64,000 nt of DNA from assembly GCA_009914755.4 (NCBI GenBank), contig CP086569.2, forward strand, positions 10,048,001-10,112,000, given 5' to 3'. How positions within the stretch are numbered: position 1 is the first letter of the stretch; every line of letters begins with the position of its first letter. The position numbers and the translations under genes were made by a program. The notes under the pieces were generated by a model, which saw only the letters and a program-made list of their open reading frames with translations, did no database searches and was not told where the DNA came from. This document shows positions 45,723 through 46,763 of this stretch, one piece after another. The stretch comes from the human T2T-CHM13v2.0 reference genome, Homo sapiens.

Positions 45723-46005
45723 GGGAGCCCTTTGTCAGATGAGTAGGTTGCAAAAATTTTCTCCCATTTTATAGGTTGCCAGTTCACTCTGATTGTAGTT
45801 TCTTTTGCTGTGCAGAAGTTCTTTAGTTTAATTAGATCTCATTTGTCAATTTTGGCTTTTGTTGCCATTGCTTTTGGTGTTTTAGACTTGAAGTCCTTGC
45901 CCATGCCTATGTCCTGAATGGTAATGCCTAGGTTTTCTTCTAGGGTTTTTATGGTTTTAGGTCTAATGTTTAAGTCTTTAATCCATCTTGAATTAATTTT
46001 TGTGC
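45723..46005 (-). mobile_element. L1 (L1PA-like) ORF2-region segment in antisense orientation. It is the inverted 5' part of a twin-primed L1 insertion.
   Basis: This segment is the reverse complement of L1 ORF2 3'-region sequence. The matching strings are '...ccctttgtcagatgagtag.ttgcaaaaattttctcccatt' and 'ctgtgcagaag.tctttagtttaattagatc.catttgtcaattttggcttttgttgccattgcttttggtgttttagac.tgaagtccttgcccatgcctatgtcctgaatggta.tgcctaggttttcttctagggtttttatggttttaggtct'. Confidence 0.85.
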
Positions 46006-46763
46006 ACACGTATGTTTATTGCAGCACTATTCGCAATAGCAAATACTTGGAACCAACCCAAATGTCCAACAATGATAGACTGGATAAAGAAAATCTGTCA
46101 CATATACACCACGGAATGCTATGCAGCCATAAAAAATGCTGTGGCTCACACCTGTAATCCCAGCACTTTGGGAGGCCGAGGCAGGTGGATCATGAGGTCA
46201 GGATATCAAGACCATCCTGCCTAAGACGGTGAAACCCCGTCTCCACTAAAAAATACAAAAAAAATTAGCCAGGCGTGGTGGTGGGCACCTGCAGTCCCAG
46301 CTACTCAGGAGGCTGAGGCAGAAGAATGGCATGAACCCAGGAGATGGAGCTTGCAGTGAGCCAAGATCGCTCCACTGCACTCCAGCCTGGGCAACAGAGC
46401 GAGACTCCGTCTCAAAAAAAGAAAAAAAAATGATGAGTTCATGTCCTTTGTAGGGACATGGATGAAACTGGAAATCATTATTCTCAGTAAAATATTGCAA
46501 GGACAGAAAACCAAACACCGCATGTTCTCACTCATAGGCGGGAATTGAACAATAAGAACACATGGACACAGGAAGGGGAGTATCACACTCTGGGGAATAT
46601 TGTGGGGTGGGGGGAGGTGGAGGGATAACATTAGGAGATATACCTAATGCTAAATGACGAGTTAATGGGTGCAGCACACCAGCATGGCACGTGTATACAC
46701 ATGTAACTAACCTGCACATTGTGCACATGTACCCTAAAACTTAAAGTATAATAAAAAAAAAAA
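46006..46763 (+). mobile_element. L1 (L1PA-like) 3' end in sense orientation, ending in poly(A). It is interrupted by a nested Alu.
   Basis: L1 3'-end sequence reads 'cacgtatgtttattgcagcactattcgcaatagcaaatacttggaaccaacccaaatgtcc', continues to '...cctaaaacttaaagtataat', and ends in poly(A) at about 46753-46763. A target-site duplication of about 'acaaataag'/'gaaataag' flanks the whole 45723-46763 insertion. Confidence 0.88.
46139..46430 (+). mobile_element. Alu (AluS/Y-like) nested inside the L1 3' segment
   Basis: The sequence 'gtggctcacacctgtaatcccagcactttgggaggccgaggcaggtggatcatgaggtcagga...gagactccgtctcaaaaaaagaaaaaaaaa' is an Alu. It splits the L1 sequence 'gccataaaaaatg|atgagttcatgtcc', and the target-site duplication is 'aaaaaatg'. 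Confidence 0.9.

What the first reader, a model, noticed from the sequence alone, without database searches (positions are those of the whole stretch)
45723..46763. Twin-priming-type L1 insertion (inverted 5' segment joined to sense 3' end) with a nested Alu and target-site duplication
At 45723-46005 there is L1 ORF2-region sequence in antisense. At 46006-46763 there is the L1 3' end in sense, ending in poly(A). The two meet at a clean junction near 46005/46006. The inverted piece maps upstream in L1 of the sense piece, which is the signature of 5' inversion by twin priming. The whole ~1.04 kb insertion is flanked by 'acaaataag'/'gaaataag' repeats of target sequence from the unit. An Alu with an 8-bp target-site duplication ('aaaaaatg') later inserted into the L1 3' segment. 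This is a compact three-layer history: satellite, then L1, then Alu.
Basis: partly seen in the sequence, partly recalled or inferred. Interest (0 to 1): 0.5.

Follow-up and report, generated by a model that had tools for sequence, protein, structure and literature searches.

The report
Twin-primed L1 insertion with nested Alu
This is an ordinary old primate retrotransposon scar: one LINE-1 copy that landed in a single unit of an ancient 2.5-kb tandem array with its front part flipped, and was later hit by an Alu. It is a clean textbook example rather than anything new.

Summary
Window 45728-46776 is the only part of this array unit that does not match the ~2.47-kb unit consensus. The flanks join seamlessly in more than 20 paralogous units. 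The insert has two LINE-1 pieces. The antisense piece (45726-46003) covers ORF2 codons 957-1049. The sense piece starts at 46003 and covers ORF2 codons 1193-1275, the stop codon, a 204-nt 3'UTR and an 11-nt poly(A). A 5'-truncated AluY-like element (46139-46424) sits inside the sense piece, flanked by AAAAAATG duplications. Removing it restores the ORF2 frame. Paralogous units carry this sequence once. The target fits an L1 endonuclease site (TTTT|AGAAAT). There are 2 nt of microhomology at the 5' junction and 1 nt at the inversion junction, which lies at 46003 rather than 46005/6. The two L1 pieces are in the right order but not adjacent: 430 nt of L1 are missing between them, against a reported median of about 15 bp. 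This is a known mechanism and a known kind of event, so interest is low. The host is a diverged tandem array (70-77% identity between units), not a homogeneous satellite.

The parts
45714..45727 (+). Left (5') copy of the target-site duplication, ACAAATAAGGGGAG. Its last two bases, AG, are also readable as L1 sequence (2-nt microhomology). C45715 and G45723 differ from the right copy and from the paralogue consensus, so they are probably changes that arose after insertion.
45726..46003 (-). Inverted L1 segment of 278 nt, covering ORF2 codon 957 to codon 1049 position 2. It maps to positions 134-411 of the reference frame built from contiguous L1 copies. It contains one in-frame stop.
46003..46003 (.). 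Inversion junction. A single T is shared by the end of the inverted piece (ACA codon of T957, read in reverse complement) and the start of the sense piece (TGC codon of C1193). This is 1 nt of microhomology.
46003..46138 (+). Sense L1 segment, part 1: ORF2 codons 1193 to about 1238, up to the Alu insertion point. It starts at position 842 of the reference frame.
46131..46138 (+). Left copy of the Alu target-site duplication, AAAAAATG. This is L1 sequence encoding ...K N D.
46139..46424 (+). Nested Alu. The body is 46139-46413 and lacks about 8 nt at its 5' end. The A-rich tail is 46414-46424. The best match is AluY: 249 of 273 identical, and 15 of the 24 mismatches are CpG transitions. The AluY consensus was recalled from memory.
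46425..46432 (+). Right copy of the Alu target-site duplication, AAAAAATG. The A run cannot be separated from the Alu tail, so the TSD is 6-8 bp.
46433..46752 (+). Sense L1 segment, part 2: the rest of ORF2 to residue 1275, the stop codon TGA at 46546-46548, and a complete 204-nt 3'UTR ending ...AAAGTATAAT(AAA).
46753..46763 (+). L1 poly(A) tail of 11 A. The last A is ambiguous with the first base of the right TSD copy.
46763..46776 (+). Right (3') copy of the target-site duplication, AGAAATAAGAGGAG. It keeps the states seen in the paralogous units (consensus AGAAAGAAGAGGAG).
43268..49268 (+). Host context. Two consecutive complete units of the ~2.47-kb tandem array (43268-45727 and 46777-49268) each align to unit-consensus positions 1-2478. 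The insertion sits exactly between them in this arbitrary phasing.

Best explanation
A single LINE-1 retrotransposition event of the twin-priming type, into one unit of a pre-existing diverged 2.47-kb tandem array.

Inferred sequence of events:
1. L1 endonuclease nicked the bottom strand at 5'-TTCT/AAAA-3' (top strand TTTT|AGAAAT).
2. The T-rich end primed reverse transcription on the poly(A) tail and copied about 456 nt: the 3'UTR and ORF2 back to codon 1193.
3. The top strand was cut 13-14 bp downstream.
4. Its 3' end (...GGAG) annealed through 2 nt to the same L1 RNA at ORF2 codon 1049.
5. From there it primed a second cDNA of about 278 nt, back to codon 957.
6. The two cDNA ends were joined at a 1-nt microhomology. 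This gave an inverted 5' piece, a sense 3' piece, a 430-nt internal deletion (because the first cDNA never reached the internal priming site) and one 13-14-bp TSD.

Later, a 5'-truncated AluY-type element inserted by the same TPRT machinery at CCAT|AAAAAATG inside the sense piece.

What is shown directly: the segment identities, orientations, L1 coordinates, empty site, TSD and nesting order. What is inferred: the order of the priming steps and the cause of the gap.
For: - Both pieces are L1 ORF2, on opposite strands. The matches to solved ORF2p are residues 957-1049 and 1193-1275.
- Against 18 contiguous L1 copies fetched from metagenome contigs, the inverted piece maps to 134-411 and the sense piece starts at 842. 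They are collinear, do not overlap, and have exactly 430 nt missing between them. The same reference copies (L107, L080, L091, L085) are the best matches for both pieces.
- Only the sense piece has the 3'UTR and poly(A).
- The empty site is seen directly. Joined flanks align across the junction to more than 20 paralogous units, with an 8-bp gap where the duplicated bases sit.
- Consensus tiling leaves exactly 45728-46776 unexplained. Removing it returns the unit to 2460 bp, against neighbours of 2458-2497 bp.
- A single 14-bp TSD with 2 mismatches bounds the composite.
- Microhomologies of 2 nt and 1 nt lie at the 5' junction and the inversion junction.
- Literature: TSDs of 14-16 bp are the mode, and microhomology is most frequent at the 5' junction of 5'-inverted L1 (PMC2912911). 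About 66% of 5'-inverted L1s carry an internal deletion, explained as the poly(dT)-primed cDNA failing to reach the internal primer (bioRxiv 10.1101/2024.08.27.596794). Extreme inversion-deletion variants are documented (PMC2837659).
- Excising the Alu restores the ORF2 frame, and its TSD AAAAAATG is L1 sequence.
Against: - The 430-nt internal deletion is far above the reported median of 14.5 bp for twin-priming deletions, so this copy is atypical in that respect.
- Microhomologies of 1-2 nt are too short to be evidence on their own.
- The TSD copies differ at 2 of 14 positions.
- The mechanism cannot be observed from a fixed, old insertion. It is inferred from the structure only.
Confidence: 0.85

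Rival explanations
1. An ordinary twin-priming event with the usual small gap, followed by a later genomic deletion at the inversion junction. The deletion would have removed the 5' part of the sense piece, and possibly part of the inverted piece, producing the 430-nt gap seen now.
For: The gap is about 30 times the reported median. The junction is a plain 1-nt microhomology, which fits either cDNA joining or later end-joining or slippage. The element is old: about 4-7% diverged from an ad hoc consensus.
Against: It needs a second event whose ends fall exactly at the old junction region. Large inversion-deletion outcomes of twin priming itself are documented (PMC2837659). Nothing in the sequence requires a second event.
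Confidence: 0.07
2. One integration event that used two different L1 RNA molecules (a trans or 'dual priming'-like variant). One RNA was primed at its poly(A) on the bottom strand. A second RNA was primed internally on the top-strand overhang.
For: Because of the 430-nt gap, no shared breakpoint links the two pieces to one template. Dual priming with two RNAs has been proposed (PMC2837659).
Against: Both pieces are closest to the same set of reference L1 copies (L107, L080, L091, L085). One template is the simpler reading. In the published dual-priming model the second RNA is primed at its poly(A), and no poly(T) is present at 45728.
Confidence: 0.05
3. Two independent insertions: a 5'-truncated sense L1, plus a separate antisense L1 fragment that landed next to it.
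For: None beyond the non-adjacent L1 coordinates.
Against: The antisense piece is an internal ORF2 fragment with no 3'UTR, no poly(T) and no TSD of its own. The left TSD copy lies outside the antisense piece, and the right copy follows the sense poly(A). The second insertion would therefore have had to land exactly between the first element's 5' end and its TSD, adding or losing no target bases.
Confidence: 0.02

Closest known systems
5'-inverted L1 insertions made by twin priming (Ostertag & Kazazian 2001; model as summarised in PMC2912911, PMC5668948 and bioRxiv 10.1101/2024.08.27.596794)
   Same: Two pieces of one L1 lie in opposite orientation, with the inverted piece upstream in L1 coordinates. 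The sense piece carries the 3'UTR and poly(A). One 13-14-bp TSD bounds the composite, the target is an endonuclease-type T-rich site, and both junctions show microhomology. Both breakpoints lie near the L1 3' end, and the forward piece is longer than the inverted piece (about 456 nt against 278 nt).
   Different: The internal deletion between the priming site and the end of the forward cDNA is 430 nt, whereas typical deletions are around 15 bp.
Twin-priming inversion-deletion variants (Meyer et al. 2010, PMC2837659)
   Same: The first reverse transcription stops early, well short of the internal priming site, which leaves a large internal deletion.
   Different: In those loci the forward cDNA stops inside the poly(A) tail, so only a poly(T)/poly(A) remnant is left. 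Here the forward cDNA still covers the 3'UTR and 83 codons of ORF2.
Nested Alu insertion by L1-mediated TPRT
   Same: The Alu is a 7SL-derived dimer with an A-rich tail. It inserted at an A-rich site (T|AAAAAA) and is flanked by a short TSD made of host (L1) sequence.
   Different: Nothing unusual. It is slightly 5'-truncated (about 8 nt) and its TSD is short (6-8 bp).

Membership tests
LINE-1 (L1) element | Sequence homology to L1 ORF2 and the L1 3'UTR | tested here: met
   The translations match solved human ORF2p at residues 957-1049 (E = 1e-50) and 1193-1275 (E = 8e-44). DNA identity to independent L1 copies is 93-97%. Pfam has no model covering these C-terminal stretches (0 hits).
5'-inverted L1 (twin priming) | Two L1 segments in opposite orientation, with the inverted one lying 5' of the sense one in L1 coordinates and not overlapping it out of order | tested here: met
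   The inverted piece maps to reference 134-411 and the sense piece starts at reference 842, measured against contiguous L1 copies.
5'-inverted L1 (twin priming) | The sense segment reaches the L1 3' end and a poly(A) tail, and the inverted segment has no tail of its own | tested here: met
   A 204-nt 3'UTR and 11 A follow the sense piece. The inverted piece ends at ORF2 codon 1049, directly against the TSD.
5'-inverted L1 (twin priming) | A single target-site duplication flanks the whole composite, and an empty site can be demonstrated | tested here: met
   A 14-bp repeat (12 of 14 matching) lies at 45714-27 and 46763-76. The sequence is present once in 20 paralogous units. Consensus tiling leaves exactly 45728-46776 uncovered.
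5'-inverted L1 (twin priming) | L1 endonuclease-type first-strand cleavage site (5'-TTTT/A-3'-like) | tested here: met
   The top strand reads TTTT|A(G)AAAT, which is 5'-TTCT/AAAA-3' on the bottom strand (read directly). That this is an accepted variant of the consensus is from established knowledge; the 5'-TTTT/A-3' motif is quoted in PMC2837659.
5'-inverted L1 (twin priming) | Microhomology at the 5' junction and at the inversion junction | tested here: met
   There are 2 nt (AG) at the 5' junction and 1 nt (T46003) at the inversion junction. Both are short and are not significant taken alone.
5'-inverted L1 (twin priming) | Small deletion or duplication (tens of bp) at the inversion point. 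This is typical of the class but does not define it. | tested here: not met
   430 nt are missing, against a reported median of 14.5 bp.
Alu (AluY subfamily) | 7SL-derived dimer with an A-rich linker, an A tail and a TSD | tested here: met
   Below-threshold Rfam hits to Metazoa_SRP (E = 2e-12), mir-1268 and mir-3135. Full-length alignment to Alu consensus sequences, plus the AAAAAATG TSD.
Alu (AluY subfamily) | Subfamily-diagnostic positions | tested here: inconclusive
   AluY scores best (249/273), ahead of AluSx (242) and AluJo (231).
   About 25 units of ~2.47 kb, all on the + strand, tile positions 1-63386.
   Units are 65-77% identical to each other and 77-88% identical to their consensus. 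TRF finds nothing. The L1, the Alus and the ERV fragment are each confined to one unit.

The most novel reading that the evidence does not exclude
The most novel reading that the evidence leaves open concerns the host, not the insertion. The host is an ancient ~2.47-kb tandem array of at least 25 units. It is non-coding, has not been homogenised, and carries only four insertions not matching the unit consensus in 63 kb. Such an array could be a conserved functional locus, for example a repeat-built lncRNA or a chromatin-organising array. For the insertion itself, the 430-nt gap might mark a two-template ('trans') twin-priming event.
Probability: 0.08. Interest if true: 0.25.

Novelty: already known. 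Interest (0 to 1): 0.08.

Why it matters
It matters little beyond annotation. It is a clean example in which the paralogous array units supply the empty site, so the TSD, the endonuclease site and both junction microhomologies can be read without an outgroup genome. It also shows that this array has not been homogenised since the L1 arrived, because the insertion is confined to one unit. That gives a minimum age for the array's present structure. The unusually large internal deletion adds one data point to the tail of the twin-priming gap distribution.

Tried and rejected
- Rfam at gathering threshold over the whole window gave no hits. The array is therefore not a snoRNA, miRNA or 5S rRNA cluster, which I had suspected from the ~2.4-kb period.
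- TRF gave no rows, because its period limit is 500 and the units are too diverged.
- The window has no ORF above 199 aa. The 17-unit majority consensus has no ORF above 152 aa, and conservation is flat at about 0.8 across the unit. I found no sign of a decayed gene array.
- Pfam does not recognise either L1 piece. The PDB ORF2p sequences did.
- Ostertag & Kazazian 2001 is not held in the library, so the gap-size expectation comes from later papers.
- Warburton et al. 2008 lists no matching ~2.47-kb array, so the host array remains unidentified.
- The two-independent-insertions reading was considered and rejected because of the single TSD.
- L1 subfamily naming (L1PAx) was not attempted, because no labelled consensus library was available. 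From memory the 3'UTR looks like a mid-age L1PA and not L1HS.

Full report
**Context.** The window is primate DNA, as shown by the Alu and L1PA-type elements. Almost all of it is a head-to-tail array of a ~2.47-kb unit on the + strand. A 300-bp anchor recurs at spacings mostly between 2.29 and 2.59 kb. A majority consensus built from 17 units (2478 nt) tiles positions 1-63386 at 77-88% identity. Units are only 65-77% identical to one another. TRF reports nothing. Rfam finds no family at gathering threshold. Neither the window nor the unit consensus has a long ORF. "Satellite" is therefore a loose label: this is an old tandem array that has not been homogenised.

**Is it an insertion?** Yes. 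A query made by joining 400 bp left of 45723 to 400 bp right of 46763 aligns straight across the join to more than 20 other units. In most of the pairwise alignments the paralogue shows an 8-base gap at the join, which means the bases on either side are duplicated in this unit. Consensus tiling gives 43268-45727 as consensus 1-2478 and 46777-49268 as consensus 1-2478. Exactly 45728-46776 (1049 bp) is left uncovered. Without that stretch the unit is 2460 bp, like its neighbours at 2458-2497 bp.

**What is inserted?**
- The reverse complement of 45725-46003 translates to [12 protein letters not shown]...ATYSSDKGL. This matches human LINE-1 ORF2p residues 957-1049 of 1275 (8uw3/8sxt numbering) with E = 1e-50.
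- From 46003 the + strand reads [10 protein letters not shown]...AAIKN. After removal of 46139-46432 it continues in frame as [14 protein letters not shown]...SLIGGN*. Together this matches ORF2p residues 1193-1275 with E = 8e-44.
- The stop codon TGA is at 46546. A 204-nt 3'UTR follows and ends in ...AAAGTATAAT, then 11 A at 46753-46763.
- The interrupting block 46139-46424 is an Alu. Rfam gives below-threshold hits to Metazoa_SRP (E = 2e-12) and to the Alu-derived mir-1268 and mir-3135 families.
- The Alu aligns end to end with Alu consensus sequences, best with AluY: 249 of 273 identical, with 15 of 24 mismatches being CpG transitions. About 8 nt are missing at its 5' end.
- The Alu is flanked by AAAAAATG at 46131-38 and 46425-32. 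This is L1 coding sequence (K-N-D), so the Alu entered an L1 that was already there.

**DNA-level L1 coordinates.** I fetched L1 copies from public metagenome contigs (presumably primate DNA contaminating the samples) with a conserved ORF2 32-mer. I kept the 18 copies that are contiguous from 650 nt upstream to 1000 nt downstream of it. Against these, the inverted piece maps to frame positions 134-411 at up to 97% identity. The sense piece, with the Alu removed, starts at 842 and runs to the poly(A) at up to 93.5% identity. The order is correct, there is no overlap, and exactly 430 nt are absent. This agrees with the codon arithmetic, which runs from codon 1049 position 3 to codon 1192 position 3. 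The same reference copies (L107, L080, L091, L085) are the best matches for both pieces. Divergence from an ad hoc consensus of the 18 copies is 11/279 for the inverted piece and 34/466 for the sense piece. From memory the 3'UTR looks like a mid-age L1PA and not L1HS. No labelled library was available to name the subfamily.

**Junctions.**
- At the left end, L1 homology read in reverse complement runs ...GACAAAGGGCT and then stops. On the + strand this is AGCCCTTTGTC starting at 45726.
- The 14 bases at 45714-45727, ACAAATAAGGGGAG, match AGAAATAAGAGGAG at 46763-46776, directly after the poly(A), at 12 of 14 positions. By my hand calculation, P is about 3e-6 for at most 2 mismatches at fixed positions.
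- The paralogue consensus at this site is ...CTCTTCTA GAAAGAAGAGGAG CACACC. The right copy therefore keeps the ancestral G and A, and the left copy carries two later changes.
- The TSD is 13-14 bp, because its first A is ambiguous with the poly(A). Its terminal AG overlaps L1, giving 2 nt of microhomology at the 5' junction.
- The target reads TTTT|AGAAAT on the top strand, which is 5'-TTCT/AAAA-3' on the bottom strand. This is a standard L1 endonuclease-type site.
- At the centre, antisense homology ends with the T at 46003 (the complement of the first base of the T957 codon). Sense homology begins with the same T (TGC, C1193).

**Mechanism.** The anatomy matches the twin-priming model of L1 5' inversion as summarised in PMC2912911, PMC5668948, PMC2837659 and bioRxiv 10.1101/2024.08.27.596794.
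- A poly(A)-primed forward cDNA is made at the bottom-strand nick.
- A second cDNA is primed inside the same RNA by the top-strand 3' overhang.
- The two cDNA ends are joined at a microhomology, and one TSD surrounds everything.
- Reported properties that fit: TSD mode of 14-16 bp, microhomology most frequent at the 5' junction of 5'-inverted L1, breakpoints clustered near the L1 3' end, and a forward piece longer than the inverted one. Here the forward piece is about 456 nt and the inverted piece 278 nt.
- The one atypical feature is the 430-nt internal deletion. In 1,703 somatic 5'-inverted L1s, 66% had an internal deletion with a median of 14.5 bp, attributed to the forward cDNA not reaching the internal primer. 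Much more extreme inversion-deletion variants are documented.
- I therefore read the gap as early termination of the forward cDNA. I cannot exclude a later deletion at the junction, or the use of two RNA templates.
- Two independent insertions are effectively excluded. The antisense piece has no 3' end, no poly(T) and no TSD of its own, and the single TSD encloses both pieces.

**History.** The array came first. Its units are 23-35% diverged from each other, and the unit-specific T in AAATAAG is present in both TSD copies. The L1 came next and is found in one unit only. The Alu came last, since it splits the L1 reading frame and duplicates L1 bases.

**Verdict.** Both the kind of event and its mechanism are already known, and nothing here calls for a new explanation. 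Interest is low.

Noticed in passing
window 1-63386: The host is a ~2.47-kb tandem array of about 25 units, all on the + strand. Units are 65-77% identical to each other. Each carries an internal (TG)n tract. There are no Rfam hits and no ORF in the unit consensus. I could not match it to any named human macrosatellite, and it is not in Warburton et al. 2008.
   Followed up: partly
window 17818-18111 (- strand): A second Alu, 82% identical to the nested one. It is the only other Alu or L1 sequence found when the insertion was used as a BLAST query against the window. It interrupts one array unit.
   Followed up: partly
window 35439-39927 (- strand): A 4.5-kb block that does not match the unit consensus. 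An ORF at 37720-38091 (-) hits Pfam RT_RNaseH (E = 1e-5, just above the cut-off) and resembles a gammaretrovirus-type pol. This is probably an endogenous retrovirus fragment inserted into, or replacing part of, the array. No LTR-like long direct repeats were found within 35300-40050.
   Followed up: partly
window 63387-64000: The array stops mid-unit, at consensus position 919, and AT-rich unrelated sequence follows (GC 0.37). This is either the array edge or another insertion. It cannot be resolved at the end of the window.
   Followed up: no
window 3313-3700, 16341-17817, 24883-26117, 28367-28700, 49275-50493, 50886-50888: Irregular units. There are internal deletions (for example consensus 838 to 1427 at 3313, and 100 to 1384 at 49372) and local partial duplications (consensus 1-775 followed by 32-736 at 16341-17817, and repeated 2108-2349 segments near 25460-26083 and 28367-28679). 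The array has been reshaped by unequal exchange or slippage within units.
   Followed up: no
loci L004, L065, L079 (metagenome contigs): Many public 'metagenome' contigs (gut, marine, sediment) carry primate L1 sequence, presumably host or laboratory contamination. L065 and L079 contain the query 32-mer on both strands. In L004 the sense-piece query matches on the opposite strand to the 32-mer. These may be other inverted L1 copies.
   Followed up: no
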